DNA from: a virus
Strand: one strand, 5' to 3'
IMG/VR virus record: IMGVR_UViG_3300046002_005654
Span: 31,511 to 95,510 of that record
Length of the DNA stretch: 64,000 nucleotides
Positions within the stretch are counted from its first letter, which is position 1. The number at the start of each line of letters is the position of its first letter. The notes below the pieces were generated by a model that worked only from the letters and a program-made list of their open reading frames with translations, was not told the DNA's origin and did no database searches. The translations under genes were made by a program, and so were the position numbers. Positions 1-44,178 of the stretch are shown here, one piece after another.

Positions 1-3000
1 ATTAGAAAGTCCTTCTAATTGGCCTTTAAATAACATATAAGCTTTATTTATTAAATCAAAGTAATAAATTCCTTTAGATGTGTTTAATACACTCCACTTA
101 TTTACGGTTCCTGAAATTGTAGTTGCATATTTATATCTATCTAATACATTTCCAGTTCCTAACTGTATAGATAAACCATCACTTCCTTGAGTTTGTACTC
201 TAGGATTGATAGATATGTAAGCAATCGCCCTATCTTGTAAAGCATATACTTCGTCATTAAAGCTAATTAAAGAGTTTATACTACCGTGCTTTCCATCTAA
301 GGTCATTACTTCATTTAATTGAACATCAGTCCAATTATCTATTATTTCTCCACCAGACTTTAATTTAGTTGAAACTATATTTGTATCATAATTAACTAGC
401 CTTTTAGTAGTATAATTTAAATTTCTTCTTTTTATTAAAGTTGGTAATTGAGAATATACCTTATTATATTTATGAAATTCAGCATCTGTTGGTGAAAATT
501 TTGTATCCCAAACATTTAAGCTTATATCATTTCTATTTTTTAAATCAATAGAGGTTTCTGTTACAAATTCAACTATTTCTTCTAATTGATACACTCCTAT
601 AGAGTTTATTTCAACATCAGTTTTTACTATTCTAGCAAATTTAAATGGATGAACAAATGTATCTCCTGGAGATTTTATAAATACAGTTGGATATAATTGA
701 TTAATTTCTTTATAATCTCCTATTTCAATATAATTACTTCTAGTTTTATCTTCATAACTATTACCTCCATATATATTTCCTAAATATATTTCATTGTCAG
801 ATTTAATTAATTCTCCTATTAACGCATTATTATCACCTGTTAATCCAGTAGACGTAAATATTGATTCTAATTTTGGTCTATCCCAACTATTTGTTGATAT
901 ATCATTGTTTCCAGTAACTAAAGTAACACATCTATTTCCGTAACTATTTATAGAAATTATTCTTCTATTGAATGGCCCATTTTTGTTATAGGTAGCACTA
1001 TCTCCATCTGAATAAAAACTTTTTAATGAATTTGAATACCTAAATTTATAGTCATTATTATATAAAGTACTATCTTGACCTTTTTCAGTTATTTCTGGAA
1101 GACCATATATGTCGACTAAAGTATTATTTGGAGAAGGAGTATAATAACTTGTTATTGGAACTACAGGAATTCCAATAGTAAATGGATTTGAAGTTGTTTT
1201 TCTTTCTATATATGTTGGAGAAGCTAAAGGGCCTTGAGAAGCCGTTACAGTTATAGTTCCAGTTACCTCAGCTGATGATGTAATTTTTAAAAAATAAACA
1301 TTATTTGGATTTATTAAAAATGAAGTTTCAGTTTTAAATACTGTATTAGTTCCAATAACTCCAGTTAATATTGTTCCTGAAATTGGATTATTTCCTTCTA
1401 CATCATAACATATACTAACATCATATGGTACAGTTGTAAAACCTACAGAAGGAGTTATTAAATAAGAAACTGTGCTTTCATTATAATTAATAGGGTCTAA
1501 AGTTGTATTTATTCCTTTTTGGCCATCACTATAAAATATTAAGTTATCTACATCGACTACGGTTCCTGTATCTACTAAATCATTAACAAATGTAAATGTG
1601 TTTCCATTTACATTACTTGTGTTAGACAATTCTCCATAACCTCTATAAAACATTGAATGAGTTACTCTTTCAGGTATTGAATCAGCTGGATGGCTTATTA
1701 ACCCTCTGTTTAAAGGATGAAAAACATTTCCTATAATTGATTCAACTGAACTTGAATATTGCGGAGATAGTCCATCAATTGCTTTACCTTCATGAACAGC
1801 AACATATGCAGCTTGAGTTAAATCTAATTCTCTAACCCATGAATTGTTTACTGAATTTTTTAAAGCTCCTTTAATTCTTAATTTTAATCCACTTGATAGT
1901 GGAATTGTTCCTCCAAATAAAACTTCAGGAGAATACATTTGCAACATTGAATTATATTGATATAGTGTTCCAGCCCTATCAACTACTTTATTCGCTAAGT
2001 GAACTTCAGTTTCTGGCCCGCTATTGTAGTTATTCATTACATCTAAATGACTTGCCTTTCTTAATGGCTTAACATTTCCATATAATGATGTTTGATTGCA
2101 ATTTCTTTGCAATATGTTTGGCATTTTTAAAATAGAATCTGACTGAGTTTTTATATTGTCATATATTTGAGCTCCTTTTGAAGACTTTTCATCTATCATC
2201 ATTCCATTAAGAATTCCATTAGCTACTATAGTTCTATCATTTAAAGTTCTTTCAGCGACAACTATCTTATATCCAACAGGTTTATCGTAATCACTTAATC
2301 CAGAAGTACTTAACCATATAAAAAAATCTGATTTTAAAGTAACGCTTAATGTATTAAAATTACCTTCTAAATTACCTGAAAGAGATTTAAAATCAGCTAT
2401 CCAGTTTGGAAGAGAAAATTGTCCATAAATATTAAAAAATTCAATACCTATCCTATATATTTCTTCATCTTTAAAATATTTATTGTCTGGATTGGTATCT
2501 GTTGTTTTTGTAAGTTCATATCTTAAATATTTTCCATCCCCTCCAAATGTATATCCATTTTCTTGAAATTTATATGTATTATAATTTAAATTTACAGAAT
2601 CATTTTTTATAAGCGTTAAATTTGAATAATCTGGAACTCCAGACACAGCGCTTAATGTAAATGGATCTCCCGTAGGAACTCCGCCAGACAATCTTAAATT
2701 ATCATATATTGTAGATGATTTTGCACTATTAAAAGAATATGCTCTACAGTCTAAATCAACTGTAAAATTTATTTCTTTATAATTTGACAAAAATAATCTA
2801 TTAAATTTTGAAACTATATGTTTTGGAATTATGATATCAGAGCCTAGAAATAAAAATTCTTCTAGAGATACGGTGCTGATTATGGTTCCATCATCATAAA
2901 TATTAATACTTTTAGTAGAAGGTATTTCTCTATCATCTATTATTGATATAGAAGGAACTTCATTATATGATGTATATTTTATTGCATAAGTTTTTATATT

Positions 3001-3846
3001 TGTGTATGCTGGATCAATATTAGATATTGTTATACTAGTAGTAGCTCCAACAACTTCGTTTAAAGCTCCTCCACCCAAAGCTCCCTTATCTAAAGGAATC
3101 ATTTCACTTAATGGAGATATCTTTGTTTGAGAAGAGTTTACTCTGTATAAATTATAAGCATACTGTATCATTCCAGCAGTATGACTTCCACCAACTGAAA
3201 CTGAATCTATAATTGGTTGCGTAAGTTTGTATTTACCAACCATATCTACCACGTTTACAGGAACATCTATTAAGTTTTCTAAATCTTTATTTAATATAGA
3301 ATGCTCTATATTTAAAAACTTAAGTTGATTATTTCCATCAACCCAATATATTTTATCTATATTTTTATTTTCAAAATTATTGATAGCTTGTATTGGTGTG
3401 TTTTTAGAAAAATTCATATCTCTTAAATACAATAATGTAATATCATAATTATCATATCTCATCTTCCAAACACAATCAAATCCATTATCATCTGTAGTAA
3501 ATAATAATAAATACGTTCTGCTATTTGCATGACCAATTATTACTTGATCTCCACTAGTAGAAGATCCGTAATTTATTTCAGTATTTTTATATACAATATC
3601 ATCACCTCCAACATATCTAATTATTTTTTCAGTAATACCATCTGTAATTCTAGTTGTTATTACTGGAGTTGGTATTTTAAATATTAATGAATTACCTTTT
3701 TCATTTGTAAGAGAACCAGTTGATTGAGAATCAGTAGCTATTACCCTTACGTTTTTACCTTCAAAGTAAAATTGGTTTGGATATTTACTTTTAGATATAT
3801 CCTGCATCATACCGTCGTAAGAATGCGTTATTTGTTTATTTGCCAT
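1..3846 (-). CDS. crAss-like tail stabilisation/muzzle protein (partial, runs off window)
   Basis: ATG at 3846; N-terminus MANKQITHSYDGMMQDISKSKYPNQFYFEGKNVRV...GSLTNEKGN resembles crAss muzzle proteins; follows the tail tubular gene; not in ORF track because it is 3'-truncated. Confidence 0.75.
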   Translation of the reverse strand, partial: MANKQITHSYDGMMQDISKSKYPNQFYFEGKNVRVIATDSQSTGSLTNEKGNSLIFKIPTPVITTRITDGITEKIIRYVGGDDIVYKNTEINYGSSTSGDQVIIGHANSRTYLLLFTTDDNGFDCVWKMRYDNYDITLLYLRDMNFSKNTPIQAINNFENKNIDKIYWVDGNNQLKFLNIEHSILNKDLENLIDVPVNVVDMVGKYKLTQPIIDSVSVGGSHTAGMIQYAYNLYRVNSSQTKISPLSEMIPLDKGALGGGALNEVVGATTSITISNIDPAYTNIKTYAIKYTSYNEVPSISIIDDREIPSTKSINIYDDGTIISTVSLEEFLFLGSDIIIPKHIVSKFNRLFLSNYKEINFTVDLDCRAYSFNSAKSSTIYDNLRLSGGVPTGDPFTLSAVSGVPDYSNLTLIKNDSVNLNYNTYKFQENGYTFGGDGKYLRYELTKTTDTNPDNKYFKDEEIYRIGIEFFNIYGQFSLPNWIADFKSLSGNLEGNFNTLSVTLKSDFFIWLSTSGLSDYDKPVGYKIVVAERTLNDRTIVANGILNGMMIDEKSSKGAQIYDNIKTQSDSILKMPNILQRNCNQTSLYGNVKPLRKASHLDVMNNYNSGPETEVHLANKVVDRAGTLYQYNSMLQMYSPEVLFGGTIPLSSGLKLRIKGALKNSVNNSWVRELDLTQAAYVAVHEGKAIDGLSPQYSSSVESIIGNVFHPLNRGLISHPADSIPERVTHSMFYRGYGELSNTSNVNGNTFTFVNDLVDTGTVVDVDNLIFYSDGQKGINTTLDPINYNESTVSYLITPSVGFTTVPYDVSICYDVEGNNPISGTILTGVIGTNTVFKTETSFLINPNNVYFLKITSSAEVTGTITVTASQGPLASPTYIERKTTSNPFTIGIPVVPITSYYTPSPNNTLVDIYGLPEITEKGQDSTLYNNDYKFRYSNSLKSFYSDGDSATYNKNGPFNRRIISINSYGNRCVTLVTGNNDISTNSWDRPKLESIFTSTGLTGDNNALIGELIKSDNEIYLGNIYGGNSYEDKTRSNYIEIGDYKEINQLYPTVFIKSPGDTFVHPFKFARIVKTDVEINSIGVYQLEEIVEFVTETSIDLKNRNDISLNVWDTKFSPTDAEFHKYNKVYSQLPTLIKRRNLNYTTKRLVNYDTNIVSTKLKSGGEIIDNWTDVQLNEVMTLDGKHGSINSLISFNDEVYALQDRAIAYISINPRVQTQGSDGLSIQLGTGNVLDRYKYATTISGTVNKWSVLNTSKGIYYFDLINKAYMLFKGQLEGLSN

Positions 3847-3869: not shown

Positions 3870-4628
3870 TTAACGGAATTTTCTCAATCTTTCTTTTTCG
3901 CCAGATTTCTTGAAGAAACTTTCGTGACTTGTATTTGATAGTATCAATCTATTTATAGAATTCATAACAGATTCCATTCCATCTACGCTTGGCATTTGCA
4001 ATGCTGTAAAAGCACTTGGCATATAGAAATATCTTTTTTGTTGAATATATTCAAAAGCTTTATCTGTTATCTTGCCCATTAAATACATAGGCTCTAAATA
4101 ACGACTTAAAATATAATATTCCATACCAAGTAACACTTTTTCATTATCTGGTATTAAAGGATACCCATCGTCATCTGTAGCTATGCCTCTATATGCAACT
4201 TGAACTTCTCCATCTCGTATAGAAGAAAATAAGACTCCTTTTTGTACAGAATATGTATATTCATTTCTTCTGTGATTACCTCTTAATTCAAAATCTGTGT
4301 TTCCTTGATTTTCAAATTCATTTGGATCAAAATGATAAATATTTGTAGACTCTCTCATTGCTACTGGGTGATTTAGAACTCCATCTTCATCAGCATCCAT
4401 ATACCTAACTCCGCTTAATGTCAAAATATCACAAGGCAATTCAGCTTTGTGATTTTGAAGTACTAAATTAGGAGATATTTTATCAATATATATTACTGGA
4501 GCTCCAAGCAATCTTATAAACTCTAAAGCGTATTCAGCTGCTTCTTCATAGTTTAATTCAGAAGCTAATGGATTACGAAGTATTCTCCATAAAACAGTCC
4601 CTAAAGACTTATAATTAATTACTTTCAT
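3870..4628 (-). CDS. tail tubular/ring protein (P22 gp4-like, crAss Ttub)
   Basis: HKAELPCD, YRGIATDDDGYPLIPDNE motifs; position just before muzzle gene. Confidence 0.75.
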   Translation of the reverse strand: MKVINYKSLGTVLWRILRNPLASELNYEEAAEYALEFIRLLGAPVIYIDKISPNLVLQNHKAELPCDILTLSGVRYMDADEDGVLNHPVAMRESTNIYHFDPNEFENQGNTDFELRGNHRRNEYTYSVQKGVLFSSIRDGEVQVAYRGIATDDDGYPLIPDNEKVLLGMEYYILSRYLEPMYLMGKITDKAFEYIQQKRYFYMPSAFTALQMPSVDGMESVMNSINRLILSNTSHESFFKKSGEKERLRKFR

Positions 4629-5178
4629 TGTTTATTGTTGTTTTATTATATAATAAATACGAATCAAATTTTTCTTTATCCTCATCGTTTATTCTTTTTC
4701 CAAGTAATCTACTAAATGTTCTGTTAACTTTAAAAGAAAATAACTTTTTATTCATAAATACTAAGTTATATTTTTTAAAATATATTCTAAACACGTATTT
4801 AGATGTATGATTATTTAAGTATCTTACTAGAAGTTTTTTAGATTTAGACTCTTCGTCTTCTAACCATAGTTTATTAGTGGCTACCCAGTCTACTGGAGCT
4901 GGATTATAAAGCTTTCCATTAACTATTCTAGGAACTCTTTTGTCTTTTCTTATACATAAAGTAGACCCTATATATGGAATAGTATATTCTAAGCCGTCTT
5001 CAATTATTAAATTTATTAATCCTTTATTAAATTCAGATATTATATCTTTATATTGTTTTCCAGTTATACTTATATCTATATTATTTTTAGTAAAATATTT
5101 ATAATAATTATTTATACCATAATCAGTATTTATTTTACCTTCCGTTCTGTTGTTCTTGACCAGCACTGTTTGAGTCAT
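4615..5178 (-). CDS. crAss IHF/HU-like protein (start uncertain)
   Basis: IPYIGSTLCIRK and VDWVATNKLW motifs; conserved position upstream of tail tubular gene. Confidence 0.6.
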   Translation of the reverse strand: MTQTVLVKNNRTEGKINTDYGINNYYKYFTKNNIDISITGKQYKDIISEFNKGLINLIIEDGLEYTIPYIGSTLCIRKDKRVPRIVNGKLYNPAPVDWVATNKLWLEDEESKSKKLLVRYLNNHTSKYVFRIYFKKYNLVFMNKKLFSFKVNRTFSRLLGKRINDEDKEKFDSYLLYNKTTINNESN

Positions 5179-35886: not shown

Positions 35887-36080
35887 TTTTTTTTAATATT
35901 TTTTTTTAAAAATTTTTAACTTTTATTAATGTATGCGTGGACTAAGGCCAACTCATACCCCGACTTCTTCAAAATTTTGGGATATACCCGTACCGCTTGG
36001 TATGGAGTTGTCTCAATAGATGTCTAATCAGATGATACGTAGCTATGAATCAGCACTATCATCACAATACTCTAAACGTT

Positions 36081-36545
36081 ATGAACGCTAAAAGATTTTC
36101 AAAAGACGACCAAACTGTATGGTCAAAAGACGCTATCGTTAATGGTGAACCAAGAACAGTAGTTTCTGCTTGCGTTGAGGTTATTGATGAAGTCTTGAAC
36201 CCTGTTACATTATTTGTTACAGAGGAAAAGTCTATGGTATGGATTAAAGGTAACTCTGAAGAGTTGGTTGATAAAACTATTAACTCTGTTATTAAACAGA
36301 TTAATAGTGGTGCAATCAAACCTTACAGAGCTTTCTCTGAAACTCCATTCTATGACGGACAAGACGAAGATATCAATCCTACTACTGAAGTGGCTTTAGG
36401 TCGTTTTAGCCAAGTAAGATTGTGTCCTGCGGATAAACACGCAAGTCTTCATCGTCAATTCATTGTATTGCCATCAATCTCTACAGGAAGTGGTCAACCA
36501 CAACCTGAACTAAAGATTGTTGAAAATGCAGGTACTGAAAAGTAA
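36081..36545 (+). CDS. first rightward (early) gene, unknown function
   Basis: strong high-expression codon bias; PFYDGQDEDINPTT motif; followed by terminator. Confidence 0.6.
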   Translation: MNAKRFSKDDQTVWSKDAIVNGEPRTVVSACVEVIDEVLNPVTLFVTEEKSMVWIKGNSEELVDKTINSVIKQINSGAIKPYRAFSETPFYDGQDEDINPTTEVALGRFSQVRLCPADKHASLHRQFIVLPSISTGSGQPQPELKIVENAGTEK

Positions 36546-36618
36546 TTAGACACATAGTGGTATCTTAAGATACACATTTCGGACATACTGCGTTAAATCG
36601 CGCTTGTACTATGTGAAC

Positions 36619-36651
36619 AAACCCTTATAGAAATATAGGGGTTTTCTTTTT
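36619..36651 (+). terminator. intrinsic terminator
   Basis: AAACCCTTATA-GAAA-TATAGGGGTTT + T-run. Confidence 0.8.
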
Positions 36652-36665
36652 AACTTCACCCAACA

Positions 36666-36791
36666 AATAGAGCTCGCTTATTGCACAACAGAAGTAATTC
36701 GTGTCTTTAGCAACTTATAGAACTCGTGTCCTGCTTATTGTAGTAGAGCTCGTTAACTGCCAGCGTTGTAGCTCTCGATAAGTTAGCAACA
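36666..36791. repeat. degenerate 25-nt-period tandem array (5 units)
   Basis: TAGA(G/A)CTCG-like core; TCG at 36674, 36699, 36724, 36750, 36775. Confidence 0.6.
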
Positions 36792-37096
36792 TAGGTCTTT
36801 TTTTTACAACAGATAAGCCATCTATCTACATTAGCCAGAGGATATTATCTTTTTATCTGTAGTCAATGTGTGTTTGATGATGATTGATTGACTATACCCT
36901 TACACACATATCCAACAATTCAACAACTAATATCACAACAACAACTATAATTATACTATAGCATTTTATGAAAGAATTTATACTCAAACTATTAATATCA
37001 TTAGCTATAATTACATTGCTAATATATACATTTTCAAGCATATTTTAATCAATAATAAACAAATAACTATCAATTTAACTAACTAAATAACAAATT

Positions 37097-37386: not shown

Positions 37387-37902
37387 ATGAATAAACAATT
37401 AATACATAGATATAGCGCATTAGAATTAAATACCATATATCAATTACGTTCTGAAGGTTATACATTTAAAGAAATAACTTTGAAAATAAATAAACAATTT
37501 AATACTAATAGAACTGAGCATAAAATAGAATGTAAATTATCTCATTCAACTAAAAAAGCAAGAACTGTTAAAAAGAAAAAATTAACTATCGAAGATAAAA
37601 CTATTATTAATAATATTAAGAAATATCCAACAAATATAAAATATGCTTTAACATTATCTGCAGAAGAATTACGTACAACATTTGAAAAATTGAATAACAG
37701 ATATTACAAGCATTTAAAATATTCTCACACAATATTAACCGTTGGTACTGAGATTGGGTTTAGTAATAACGTTAAAAATACATTAAGGGATATTGATGGT
37801 AATTTAAAATTACCAGATATGAATGATGTGCAATGGCTAATGAAACAAATATTGAATTTATCAGAACAAGAAAGAAATACGATTAAATTATTATTAACTT
37901 AA
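37387..37902 (+). CDS. putative HTH DNA-binding protein
   Basis: LRSEGYTFKEITLKINKQFNTNRT HTH-like; basic. Confidence 0.5.
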   Translation: MNKQLIHRYSALELNTIYQLRSEGYTFKEITLKINKQFNTNRTEHKIECKLSHSTKKARTVKKKKLTIEDKTIINNIKKYPTNIKYALTLSAEELRTTFEKLNNRYYKHLKYSHTILTVGTEIGFSNNVKNTLRDIDGNLKLPDMNDVQWLMKQILNLSEQERNTIKLLLT

Positions 37903-37904
37903 AG

Positions 37905-38700
37905 AGTTTAATACAAGCCATCCTTAAACAAAACAAGATTATAAAAAGGCTAATTAAGCTAGTTTATGAACAGCAACACAATAGGAACACTTTAAATAAT
38001 CAAATATACGTATATTTGATTATGTATAGAATAGTACAAGTGAAAGAGGTGTGATTCCTTAATTTTAATGGTATCGTATCCATTTAAAACTTGCGATCTA
38101 TGGTCTCTGTGGATAGGGAACACTTGTGAGTTGCAATGATATAAACTCTCAGACAAAAAGGCTAAACATTGAACCTTTGTAAATTATAAAGAAGACTAGG
38201 ACTACAAGTATATAAAGTCTTATTAGTATTGCTAGAGGTAGTGCTCGCAACTTTATGCGATAATTTACATAAAGATACTATCAGTAATGGTAGATGTGTT
38301 GTTCCCTTGAGAAAGGAATAGAGGAAGACAGATATTAAAACTCAGAAGCTATAAACTGTACAACACAAATGAGTTCTCGGCAAGACTACGTGAAAGTATC
38401 AACACAGATAAGTTCAACACGTTAAATAGTCGTGACCCTACTATTAGGCATTAAAGTAGATGTAAATCGAAAAAGTACTGTTTGGTATGTGATAAGAAAG
38501 AGGGTGCTAAACTGTTATGTTCAGCGCTGGAGAAATTCAGTACTAAAATAAAAAACTTAATAACTTCACAAGTCATTGAGTGCACCAGTTTCTTTAGTTA
38601 CAATACAATCTGTACAAATAGTACAGGACTAACAAGTAGTTATAATTCCGTCTGAGCACGGTCAGGAACAACATCTTGTATTGGTATTAAAGTTTTAGGT
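37905..38700 (+). ncRNA. candidate large multi-domain structured RNA (strand inferred from context)
   Basis: ~800 nt with no ORF in the track; four multi-branch domains and pseudoknots by eye. Confidence 0.55.
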
Positions 38701-38731
38701 GTAAAATGCAATTAACTAAAAACAAATAATT

Positions 38732-38944
38732 ATGGATAAGATTAAAATAATTGGAAATCAATTAACACATAAAGAAATCATAAATAACATTAAAAAAAGA
38801 GGCATTGTATTTGTACCTAGTATGCACGAAATTAAAAACGACATGAGAGAACAATATTTATTAAATGAAGATAATATTAACACACTTGTTACTATTTCAG
38901 GACACGCTACATATGATAGATCAAAATCTAAATATCACAAATAA
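38732..38944 (+). CDS. hypothetical protein
   Basis: ORF with typical initiation region. Confidence 0.5.
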   Translation: MDKIKIIGNQLTHKEIINNIKKRGIVFVPSMHEIKNDMREQYLLNEDNINTLVTISGHATYDRSKSKYHK

Positions 38945-43264: not shown

Positions 43265-43600
43265 GGGGCTGACTGGTTTTGAGGTTGTGTCAGTAATTAT
43301 ATAATTCATCCAGAGAGATAACTGTAAACTAAGGTGAATATTTTTAAACGGCAAAAATCAACAAGAAGCCAATATGGCTAAAGTTTTTTCTCTAATCAAC
43401 AGCGACATAGTCGAATTTGAATTAGCAGCATAGTTTAAACGATTGTAGTAATACAATCAACTCAAGCTATAGAGTAATTTAGTGACTAGTCCACATTTAG
43501 TAGTTTTTAAGGGACTTTAAAGATTAAATTCTACAAAAAGCTGTATAAAATTATATAACAAAAGCATTGATCGACGGGAGTTCGACTCTCCCCAGCTCCA
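43265..43600 (+). ncRNA. ssrA: tmRNA
   Basis: 5' GGGGCTGACTGGTTTTGA; 3' GACGGGAGTTCGACTCTCCCCAGCTCCA with G3:U acceptor pair; tag ORF 43350-43433 ending LAA*. Confidence 0.9.
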
Positions 43601-43738
43601 CAGCAGTTACTTGATGTCAAATATGTACAGTAACAGACATTGGAAAAATTTGGCTTTTCACGAATGTTAAGTCCTATCGGGCAGAATAGGGGATGAGTAC
43701 TTATGGTAAAACTTTCAAAACCTACAACCTCATCAAAT

Positions 43739-43824
43739 AGTCAGGTGGCGGAATTGGTAGACGCTATCCTTAGGGAGAGTCCGAGTTAAAAACGGCGTTC
43801 AAGGTTCAAATCCTTGTCTGACTA
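43739..43824 (+). tRNA. tRNA-Leu-like RNA with aberrant anticodon arm
   Basis: acceptor AGTCAGG/TCTGACT, D arm GCGGAATTGGTAGACGC, T arm CAAGG-TTCAAAT-CCTTG, long variable arm; anticodon hairpin has only a TTAG loop. Confidence 0.6.
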
Positions 43825-44178
43825 CAAATACACGTGTATGTGTAAAAATAATAGTTCGTTTAAGTGAAAGACCCCGAAAGGAATATAATTGGTTGTTCAG
43901 CCAGTTACTATTATTTTAAAGAAAAGAGTGGTTCGAATCCACAGATTTATTCGTAGGAAGCAGTCGATAAGCTTCGTTAGGTGAAACAGGTAGTGTAGCT
44001 TCCATTGGGGGACTGCGAATAAATTATTTTATTATTAACTAAAATAAATAAATTATGATTACAGTTTTTATTATATTAATATTATTTATAATATTTAATA
44101 TGTATGATGATAATGACTATTCTGGTTATTAAGAAATAAATTATACATAAGTGTATAATGTCGATACTTTGGTGAAAA

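What the first reader, a model, noticed from the sequence alone, without database searches (positions are those of the whole stretch)
37905..38700. ~800-nt ORF-free region folding into four multi-branch domains: candidate new large phage ncRNA
Domain 1: ACAAGTG (38036) / CACTTGT (38121) closes a three-way junction, with possible pseudoknot ACACTTT/GAGGTGT. Domain 2: TGTAAATTAT (38178) / ATAATTTACA (38260) closes a four-way junction of AAGACT/AGTCTT, AGTATTGC/GTAGTGCT and CGCA/TGCG. Domain 3: pseudoknotted module at 38278-38510. Domain 4: AAAACTTAATA (38552) / TATTAAAGTTTT (38685) encloses CAATACAA/TTGTATTG with three inner hairpins. Size and complexity recall GOLLD/ROOL-class phage RNAs, but I do not recognise it as either.
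Basis: partly seen in the sequence, partly recalled or inferred. Interest (0 to 1): 0.82.

Follow-up and report, generated by a model that had tools for sequence, protein, structure and literature searches.

The report
Three phage RNA genes in tandem
The 800-base gene-free stretch of this freshwater crAss-like phage is not one giant RNA but three separate folded non-coding RNA genes in a row; none is in the RNA family catalogue, one matches an abundant unexplained transcript of the lab phage phi14:2, and what they do is unknown.

Summary

The interpretation, one ~800-nt four-domain GOLLD/ROOL-class RNA, is not supported. Comparative data split the gap into three modules that occur separately in other phages.

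It is found in 9 other viral contigs. In three of them it stands alone and ends in its own terminator.
- **X (38157-38512, Domains 2-3).** It has 106 covariance-model hits in 95 phage loci. 96% of cells are paired, and 37 of 51 pairs show changes on both sides. It has an invariant pseudoknot. It often directly abuts tmRNA or tRNA genes. Its phi14:2 copy lies in the g004-g005 junction, which Drobysheva et al. reported as an abundant, early and persistent "long non-coding RNA".
- **Y (38546-38710, Domain 4).** It has two almost invariant ends and a swappable hairpin of about 20-140 nt. It is present in more than 116 crAss-like contigs, including human-gut Suoliviridae that lack X.

No module matches Rfam 15. 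Function is unknown. My best guess is trans-acting stable RNAs cut out of an RNA-gene operon.

Earlier agents of this scan found family X on other genomes. I found no earlier follow-up of Y or W.

The parts
37903..38066 (+). Spacer or leader before the RNA array. It holds a perfect 24-nt palindrome (37998-38021) that contains a Bacteroidota-type -7 box look-alike, TATATTTG (38011-38018).
   Evidence: Sequence read. The palindrome shows up as spurious symmetric miRNA-model hits. The TAnnTTTG match is at offset -139 from X. No consistent promoter sits upstream of X in other loci, so promoter function is inference only.
38067..38154 (+). It has helix S2 (ATCGTA/TGCGAT here), a possible crossing pairing ATGG/CCAT, and a conserved 3' hairpin (TTGTGAGTT...AACTCTCAG).
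   Evidence: Homologues lie in L141, L192, L204, L205 and L215-L219. In S2, 4 of 6 pairs show changes on both sides among 8 sequences. W is followed by a hairpin plus T-run terminator in L215, L217 and L219, and directly by X in L204, L205, L216, L218 and here.
38157..38512 (+). It contains: 5' hairpin H1 with loop CTAAACATTGAA; stem P2 (38178-38187 / 38260-38269) with a lineage-specific insert; hairpin H3; a three-way junction; pseudoknot TGAGAA (38308-38313) x TTCTCG (38374-38379); variable hairpin H7; and terminal helix P8 ending in TAAGAAAGAGGGTGCTAA (38493-38510).
   Evidence: Covariance model R1 hits 38150-38516 at 160.4 bits, E 1e-37, the only hit in the window and in the whole 95.5-kb phage record. 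It is homologous to L094:11246-11616 and to phi14:2 2903-3365.
38527..38540 (+). Small GNRA-capped hairpin (CTGGA-GAAA-TTCAG) between X and Y.
   Evidence: Sequence. The same element follows X in L157 as TTGGA-GAAA-TTCAA, one change on both sides (output). This rests on only two sequences.
38546..38710 (+). Its parts are: an A-rich 5' tract plus CTTAATAACTT; hairpin H_a (CAC 38567-38569 / GTG 38580-38582); CACC (38583-38586) ... GGTG (38698-38701) around an invariant internal loop; and a variable three-hairpin insert P_var closed by CTT (38592-38594) / AAG (38689-38691). It ends in the invariant TAAAATGC.
   Evidence: The 5' block is at 38574-38594 and the 3' block at 38691-38709, each present once in the window. 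More than 116 copies occur in IMG/VR and GenBank crAss-like phages. H_a and the P_var base covary. MFE z = -4.27, with 0 of 200 shuffles folding as well.
38732..38944 (+). First ORF after the array (70 aa, no family match). It is not part of the RNAs and marks the downstream boundary.

Best explanation
The gap is a tandem array of three independent genes for structured non-coding RNAs (W, X, Y), read rightward on the + strand in the region just past the phage's strand switch. Each is a separately conserved, separately mobile module, in the way tRNA genes are. Shown: modularity, conserved secondary structure and phage specificity. Shown for X only, through its phi14:2 orthologue: high, early and persistent expression. 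Inferred: the modules are made as part of a longer transcript and trimmed out. In other phages X abuts tRNA 3' ends and tmRNA 5' ends, so RNase P and RNase Z type cuts would release it. Also inferred: the modules act in trans as stable RNAs that bind or decoy a conserved host or phage factor through their invariant unpaired segments. Those segments include a similar 5' hairpin loop (ACATTGA in X and gut Y, TCATTGA in this window's Y), the X pseudoknot and the Y internal loop. X keeps company with tmRNA and tRNA genes, so a role tied to translation or tRNA/tmRNA metabolism is my leading guess, and it is only a guess.
For: Modularity:
- X and Y lie about 10 kb apart in L094.
- Y occurs without X in 100 loci and in 5 whole gut crAss-like genomes.
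- W has its own terminator in 3 contigs.

Structure of X:
- 86 distinct sequences; 96.2% of cells paired, against 85.0% shuffled and 39-49% slid.
- 37 of 51 pairs have changes on both sides.
- 268 such cells against 47 expected; 0 of 500 shuffles reach the observed value.

Structure of Y:
- The H_a stem appears as CC/GG, CA/TG, TC/GA and TT/AA.
- The P_var base is paired in 159 of 246 cells, against 106 +/- 8 shuffled.

Structure of W: 4 pairs with changes on both sides.

Strand: G-U pairs are frequent in the + sense.

Expression:
- The phi14:2 copy of X (2903-3365) lies between g004 (2194-2904) and g006 (4602-4901) in the RefSeq record. That places it in the g004-g005 junction.
- Drobysheva et al. 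(bioRxiv 10.1101/2020.03.07.982082) report that junction as transcribed rightward above most protein genes, early and without later decline.
- The second such region holds a tmRNA.

Context:
- A tmRNA lies less than 150 nt downstream of X in L094, L121, L171, L179, L187, L207 and L209.
- tRNAs abut X in L155, L162, L203 and L127.

Phage specificity: among 185,579 bacterial and archaeal genomes, only three MAG contigs carry a true X.

No conserved neighbouring protein was found.
Against: - No transcript data exist for this phage. The only RNA run that held any of it is a metatranscriptome kept as contigs, which cannot show ends, strand or level.
- Co-transcription and processing are inferred.
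- The covariation alignment for X was fitted to the model, which inflates the percentage paired.
- The X pseudoknot and most of Y's scaffold are invariant, so covariation cannot test them.
- The tmRNA link is modest. ARAGORN calls a tmRNA in 13 of 94 X loci and in 8 of 119 Y loci.
- Nothing here identifies a binding partner or an activity.
Confidence: 0.7

Rival explanations
1. One large (~800-nt) multi-domain RNA of the GOLLD/ROOL class. The three modules would be domains that only function together.
For: The modules are contiguous here, with no terminator-like site between them on the + strand. W sits directly against X in five loci. GOLLD and ROOL are also phage-associated and lie near tRNA genes (established knowledge).
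Against: X, Y and W each occur without the others. No long-range pairing between modules is conserved. The Domain 1 closing helix is not conserved. The GOLLD and ROOL models give no hit even at E <= 10.
Confidence: 0.07
2. Cis-acting leader elements. Y above all would be a 5' UTR device controlling the downstream early genes. Its invariant 3' end AGGTGTAAAATG looks like a Shine-Dalgarno box plus start codon, and two mutually exclusive folds of its 5' half could act as a switch.
For: The ATG is kept in most of the 72 distinct downstream contexts. In this window the 7-codon mini-ORF stops 2 nt before the next ORF's ATG. About a third of the contexts have an ORF of at least 40 aa starting 14-52 nt after Y. 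No terminator follows Y here. The MFE fold uses CTTAAT/ATTGAG, while covariation supports the competing stem H_a.
Against: The mini-ORF is 2-45 codons long and not conserved. The start triplet is not ATG in 4 of the 72 contexts (ACA in L215 and L065, ATA in L176, GTG in L040). About 30 of the 72 contexts have no ORF within 200 nt. Downstream gene identity is not conserved. X and W are followed by RNA genes or terminators, not by ORFs.
Confidence: 0.15
3. Catalytic RNA. X, or less probably Y or W, would be a ribozyme: for example a processing enzyme for the phage's tRNA/tmRNA transcripts (RNase P-like), or a self-cleaving unit that frees itself from the operon.
For: X has an invariant pseudoknot core and conserved purine-rich joining strands, is at least 220 nt long, and is physically embedded in tRNA/tmRNA operons. 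The smallest known RNase P RNAs are of similar size (established knowledge).
Against: No RNase P, group I, group II or small self-cleaving ribozyme model matches, even at E <= 10. The conserved blocks do not follow the order of RNase P conserved regions or of group I P/Q/R/S elements (my comparison from memory, so weak). X interrupts no gene.
Confidence: 0.08
4. A DNA-level element rather than RNA: a replication origin, operator cluster or recombination site. The gap sits about 2 kb from the strand switch and the cumulative GC-skew minimum. Y's imperfect inverted ends around a swappable middle recall sites that fold as single-stranded DNA.
For: The GC-skew minimum and gene-orientation switch are near 35900-37000. 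There is a 24-nt perfect palindrome at 37998-38021. The flanks on both sides of Y are mosaic.
Against: In X, compensatory changes preserve pairing in eight of the ten helices counted, G-U pairs occur in one sense only, and its orthologue is an abundant transcript. Y's spacing varies by more than 100 nt, which protein-DNA sites with fixed geometry rarely tolerate. No recombinase or initiator gene is a conserved neighbour.
Confidence: 0.05

Closest known systems
The 'long non-coding RNA' of the g004-g005 junction of Cellulophaga crAss-like phage phi14:2 (Drobysheva et al., bioRxiv 10.1101/2020.03.07.982082; later in Nature)
   Same: Module X is the same RNA family. Model R1 hits phi14:2 2903-3365 at 137.6 bits, inside that junction. 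The window phage is phi14:2's relative, with 64% identity in the major capsid protein. In both phages the RNA lies in the rightward region after the strand switch, with a tmRNA downstream.
   Different: The paper reports only transcript abundance for an intergenic region. It gives no sequence family, structure, boundaries or homologues. Here X is flanked by W and Y. No Y was found in the first 9 kb of phi14:2, and W was not sought there. Expression of the window's copy is untested.
GOLLD (Rfam RF01998) and ROOL (RF03087) large phage-associated RNAs
   Same: These are elaborate structured RNAs of unknown function, phage- or prophage-borne, often next to tRNA genes, and abundant during infection (established knowledge).
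   Different: There is no sequence or structure match. X is about 220-480 nt, against roughly 580-800 nt. The hosts differ (Bacteroidota-type phages against mainly Firmicutes and others). The 800-nt size that prompted the comparison comes from three adjacent genes.
Stable RNAs C and D (species 1 and 2) in the phage T4 tRNA gene cluster
   Same: These are small stable RNAs of unknown function, co-transcribed with phage tRNAs and released by tRNA-processing enzymes (established knowledge). That is the arrangement inferred for X, which abuts tRNA 3' ends and tmRNA 5' ends.
   Different: No sequence relation is known. The T4 RNAs are smaller (about 120-140 nt), and processing of X has not been shown.
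Candidate structured RNAs of the IMG/VR-wide screen (Fremin et al. 2023, PMC10690425)
   Same: That screen drew on the same data source (IMG/VR) and predicted 10,006 unnamed covarying phage RNA motifs, some of them gut-specific and highly expressed. W, X or Y may be among them.
   Different: This could not be checked, because no supplementary file is held. That catalogue assigns no function and is not in Rfam.

Membership tests
X family (phi14:2 g004-g005 lncRNA type) | Full-length match to a covariance model built from other members | tested here: met
   R1 (seeded from 7 other phages, window not included) hits 38150-38516, model positions 1-310 of 310, 160.4 bits, E 1e-37.
X family (phi14:2 g004-g005 lncRNA type) | Conserved blocks in order: H1 loop TAAACATTGA; AAAGATACTATCAG; CTTGAGAAAG; AATGAGTTCTC; GACCCTACTNTTA; TAAGAAAGAGGGTGCTAA | tested here: met
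   All six are present at the expected spacing (last row). There is one substitution in the fifth block.
X family (phi14:2 g004-g005 lncRNA type) | Abundant stable transcript during infection | not testable with these tools
   Shown only for phi14:2. The runs available for this phage are contigs.
GOLLD / ROOL | Match to the Rfam covariance model | tested here: not met
   No hit at the gathering threshold on the window, nor at E <= 10 on 37700-38900.
GOLLD / ROOL | A single conserved unit of about 600-800 nt | tested here: not met
   The stretch resolves into three units that occur apart.
Bacterial RNase P RNA | Match to RNaseP models, including the conserved P4 core | tested here: not met
   No RNaseP family appears among hits at E <= 10.
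Group I intron | Match to Intron_gpI and interruption of a host gene | tested here: not met
   No hit in the gap, although the same scan finds a real group I intron in L137. X interrupts no ORF or RNA gene.
tmRNA | tRNA-like domain plus tag reading frame | tested here: not met
   The window's tmRNA is elsewhere (43265-43603). Nothing in the gap matches.

The most novel reading that the evidence does not exclude
X and Y are two members of one functional system. Their similar 5' hairpin (stem, 3' bulge, YAA/TTG, and a small loop ending in CA) would dock the same conserved host or phage factor. X would be a dedicated partner of phage tmRNA and tRNA metabolism, for instance an RNA cofactor or ribozyme that matures, protects or redirects phage tmRNA. 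Y, whose roughly 65-nt scaffold is almost unchanged between lake-water and human-gut crAss-like phages, would be a scaffold RNA whose swappable hairpin sets specificity.
Probability: 0.1. Interest if true: 0.85.

Novelty: new member of a known kind. Interest (0 to 1): 0.6.

Why it matters
crAss-like phages are among the most abundant viruses of the human gut and are common in water, yet their early regions are largely unannotated. This stretch shows that part of that unannotated sequence is a set of RNA genes, not spacer.

- **X.** It now has a defined family, structure and boundaries, and it has an experimentally tractable orthologue in phi14:2. That turns a 2020 remark ("function remains to be determined") into a testable object.
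- **Y.** Its scaffold is nearly identical in lake-water and human-gut Suoliviridae phages while everything around it is shuffled. Conservation at that level usually signals contact with a very conserved partner.
- **Annotation.** Adding these families to Rfam would stop spurious small ORFs being called over them, as happened in the original phi14:2 record.

Tried and rejected
- **Alternative genetic codes** (table 4, TAG=Q, TAA=Q) to open a hidden ORF: none opened.
- **Rfam** at gathering and at E <= 10: only chance miRNA-model hits on the palindrome.
- **blastn of the whole gap against GenBank phages.** Only the 50-nt Y block matched. X alone gave one marginal 26-nt hit, to phi14:2.
- **A conserved partner protein next to X or Y.** The upstream proteins are unrelated, with weak HTH, SPFH or no domains.
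- **A shared promoter upstream of X.** There is no consistent TAnnTTTG box.
- **Enrichment of the ACATTGA hairpin elsewhere in the window.** 13 sites were found against about 12 in shuffles, so it is specific to X and Y.
- **A host-encoded counterpart of X.** The 18-mer occurs in about ten Pelagibacter chromosomes and elsewhere, but the model rejects all except three MAG contigs, so those are chance or coding matches.
- **Sequencing runs.** One lake-water DNA run holds 99% of the stretch and is probably its source. The single RNA run (an aquatic metatranscriptome kept as contigs) holds only conserved pieces of W, X and Y from relatives. X-core contigs there reach depth 552-1759, but DNA runs show the same excess over the conserved core, so this says nothing firm about expression.
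- **tmRNA co-occurrence.** Two larger X-bearing records have a tmRNA over the Rfam cut-off, and none of five gut Y-only genomes does. The ARAGORN tallies (13 of 94 against 8 of 119 loci) are too close to claim a statistical link.
- **The Fremin et al. catalogue** could not be searched, because no supplements are held.
- **Pairings I could not resolve.** In Y, P1 (AAAACT/AGTTTT) competes with the CTT/AAG base of P_var. In W, the fold of the central GGTCTCTG segment is unclear.

Full report
**What is at the coordinates.**
- Window 37903-38731 lies between a 171-aa ORF (37387-37902) and a 70-aa ORF (38732-38944).
- It stays closed in all six frames: the longest open stretch is 66 codons. It stays closed under table 4, TAG=Q and TAA=Q as well.
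- G+C rises to 0.32-0.35 against 0.21-0.26 in the neighbouring genes. In an AT-rich genome that is typical of structured RNA.
- Thermodynamic folding by itself is unimpressive: z = -1.8 for the + strand and -1.45 for the - strand of the whole stretch. The case therefore has to rest on comparison with other sequences.

**What the phage is.**
- The window is part of a 95.5-kb, 98% complete virus record, probably assembled from a lake-water metagenome.
- Its major capsid protein is 64% identical to g091 of Cellulophaga phage phi14:2 and 47% identical to Bacteroides crAss-like phages.
- Portal and large terminase are also recognisable.
- It is therefore a freshwater crAss-like phage near the Steigviridae. 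The gap lies about 2 kb to the right of the switch from leftward to rightward genes.

**The gap is three modules, not one RNA.** blastn of the whole gap against GenBank phages found only a 50-nt piece (38542-38596). It matched at 84-91% identity in 15 records (11 distinct human-gut crAss-like phages of the family Suoliviridae, some held under two accessions), always in an unannotated gap after the first rightward gene. I call the three modules W, X and Y.

**Module Y (38546-38710).**
- A scan of IMG/VR with 20 specified bases of the 5' block returned more than 117 contigs. In nearly all of them a second invariant block, AGTTTTAGGTGTAAAATGC, follows 42-158 nt later.
- Between the two blocks sit at least 41 unrelated kinds of insert. 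Outside them the flanks are mosaic.
- The insert always begins and ends as a helix continuing from CTT/AAG. The first three positions inward are paired in 40, 36 and 33 of 41 types, with AT, TA, CG and GC all used. Paired cells number 159 of 246, against 106 +/- 8 when partners are shuffled.
- Just upstream, a 3-bp stem (H_a) appears as CC/GG, CA/TG, TC/GA and TT/AA in different lineages (sequences). That is direct compensatory evidence.
- G-T pairs outnumber A-C mismatches in the first four positions (9 to 3), which favours the + strand.
- The window's copy folds far better than shuffles: z = -4.27, 0 of 200.
- The MFE fold uses a different pairing of the 5' half (CTTAAT/ATTGAG). That pairing is consistent across lineages only through wobble changes and excludes H_a. 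Y may therefore have two conformations, which I could not resolve.

**Module X (38157-38512).**
- One Y-bearing contig, L094, also matched the window at three collinear places inside Domains 2-3. Those matches lie about 10 kb from its Y and directly upstream of a tmRNA.
- The 18-mer at the 3' end of that region, TAAGAAAGAGGGTGCTAA, occurs in 94 IMG/VR contigs from many environments. Nearly all of them share five further blocks in the same order.
- I built a covariance model from seven short members, without the window. It finds 106 copies in 95 loci, and the window's copy scores 160 bits.
- On that alignment (86 distinct sequences), 96.2% of cells form pairs, against 85.0% after shuffling and 39-49% when partners are slid. 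37 of 51 pairs show changes on both sides. 268 such cells were seen against 47 expected, and no shuffle of 500 reaches the observed values.
- Caveat: the alignment was fitted to the model, which favours the percentage paired. The many pair types per column in H1, P2, H3, P4, H5 and H7 are not explained by that.
- The loop-to-strand pseudoknot (TGAGAA with TTCTCA) and the 5-bp ACCCT/AGGGT segment of the terminal helix are essentially invariant. They are compatible with the data but not tested by it.
His "pseudoknotted module" is the X core.

**Module W (~38067-38154).**
- The 3' two-thirds of Domain 1 match L141, L192, L204 and L205 immediately upstream of their X copies.
- A scan with its core found five more contigs. 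In three of them (L215, L217, L219) W is followed by a hairpin and T-run, and X does not follow it. In the others X follows directly.
- One helix has four of six pairs with changes on both sides among eight sequences. The proposed three-way-junction closure of Domain 1 is therefore not supported.

**Independence of the modules.**
- X is absent from 100 Y-bearing loci and from five complete gut crAss-like genomes. A positive control on the window's own genome worked.
- Phi14:2 has X, and no Y was found in its first 9 kb.
- No homologous protein accompanies X or Y.
- None of the three modules matches any of the 4,227 Rfam 15 families.
- Among one genome per 185,579 prokaryotic species, only three MAG contigs, which I suspect are binned phage fragments, carry a true X. 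The Pelagibacter matches to the 18-mer fail the model.

**Link to published data.**
- A note from an earlier agent of this scan pointed to phi14:2, and I checked it.
- The model hits phi14:2 at 2903-3365.
- The RefSeq record, re-annotated in June 2020 with the numbering used in the paper, places g004 at 2194-2904 and g006 at 4602-4901. It removed the small ORFs formerly called across this region.
[quoted passage not shown] - The first junction therefore contains X. The second contains a tmRNA (46 bits, E 2e-16).
- g005 itself is not a feature of the current record, so I infer its position from the two neighbours.

**Context and likely mode of action.**
- In other phages X sits in RNA-gene clusters.
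- A tmRNA begins 7-150 nt after X in L094, L121, L171, L179, L187, L207 and L209.
- tRNAs end a few bases before X in L155, L162 and L203 (and in L133 and L168, judged from sequence only), and a tRNA follows X in L127.
- Such spacing implies co-transcription and release by the enzymes that trim tRNA and tmRNA ends. This is inferred, not shown.
- X and Y start with a similar hairpin. Its loop reads TAAACATTGAA in X, AAGACATTGA in gut Y, and AAGTCATTGA in the window's Y. The window as a whole is not enriched for this hairpin.
- Together with the near-invariance of about 65 nt of Y between lake and gut phages, this suggests contact with a conserved factor. I cannot name it.
- I rank the explanations as follows: trans-acting stable RNAs first; a cis-leader role for Y second (its 3' end resembles an SD-ATG, but); a ribozyme third; a DNA-level element last.

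**Verdict.** The single-giant-RNA reading is wrong in its central claim. X is a new member of a family whose transcript is already published and which this scan has met before. I found no earlier follow-up of Y or W, and Y in particular deserves attention because of its reach into human-gut crAss-like phages.

Noticed in passing
window 43265-43603: Phage-encoded tmRNA (Rfam 52.9 bits; ARAGORN tag GKNQQEANMAKVFSLINSDIVEFELAA). Several X-bearing phages carry tmRNAs whose long tags share an ANM(N/A)KVFSL core (L121, L159, L171). That points to a phage-specific tmRNA lineage.
   Followed up: partly
window 43739-43825: ARAGORN calls an 87-nt tRNA-Pro with the unusual anticodon AGG just after the tmRNA. 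A similar call follows X in L127 (7736-7822). It may be a non-canonical tRNA or a tRNA-like element.
   Followed up: no
window 37998-38021: Perfect 24-nt palindrome (AATCAAATATAC|GTATATTTGATT). It contains TATATTTG, a Bacteroidota -7 box look-alike, on both strands, about 45 nt before W. The upstream 171-aa ORF has a weak helix-turn-helix hit (PF13936, E 0.002). This may be an operator-promoter pair.
   Followed up: partly
window 38159-38176 versus tmRNA tag regions in L121, L159, L171: The X H1 loop (GCTAAACATTGAAC) resembles the tag-coding segment GCTAACATGAAC (Ala-Asn-Met-Asn) of the neighbouring phage tmRNAs: 12 of 14 bases with two 1-nt indels. This could be chance.
   Followed up: no
L141 8790-8835, and upstream of X in L150, L181, L212: Another recurring small element (ATAGCTAAGCTGTGTAAAGC...GAAGCTAAAGG) lies between W and X or just before X. 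A further one (…GAAAAAGGGTTA.TAGTAGT…GACACAGGTTGGTAATAGG) precedes X in L127 and L156. The phage RNA arrays contain more uncatalogued modules.
   Followed up: no
Loci with Y: L012, L092, L104, L118 and others, directly after the ATGC end: In many gut crAss-like contigs Y is followed by further conserved hairpin-forming sequence (for example TTCTATCTCTT...AAGAGAATAGA) rather than by an ORF. Gut phages may also carry RNA arrays here.
   Followed up: no
KC821624.1 3106-3431 and 4213-4519 (L214): The original phi14:2 GenBank record calls five small minus-strand ORFs (gp007-009, gp013-014) across X and the tmRNA. RefSeq removed them in 2020. This shows how these RNA genes become mis-annotated as proteins.
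   Followed up: yes
L137 5769-6047: A clear group I intron (Rfam 90.9 bits) lies in an X-bearing phage contig, about 5 kb from its X copy.
   Followed up: no
window 36619-36644: A strong terminator-like hairpin (11 pairs, then a T-run) on the + strand follows the first rightward ORF (36045-36545). The G+C-rich stretch 36000-36900 was not examined further.
   Followed up: no
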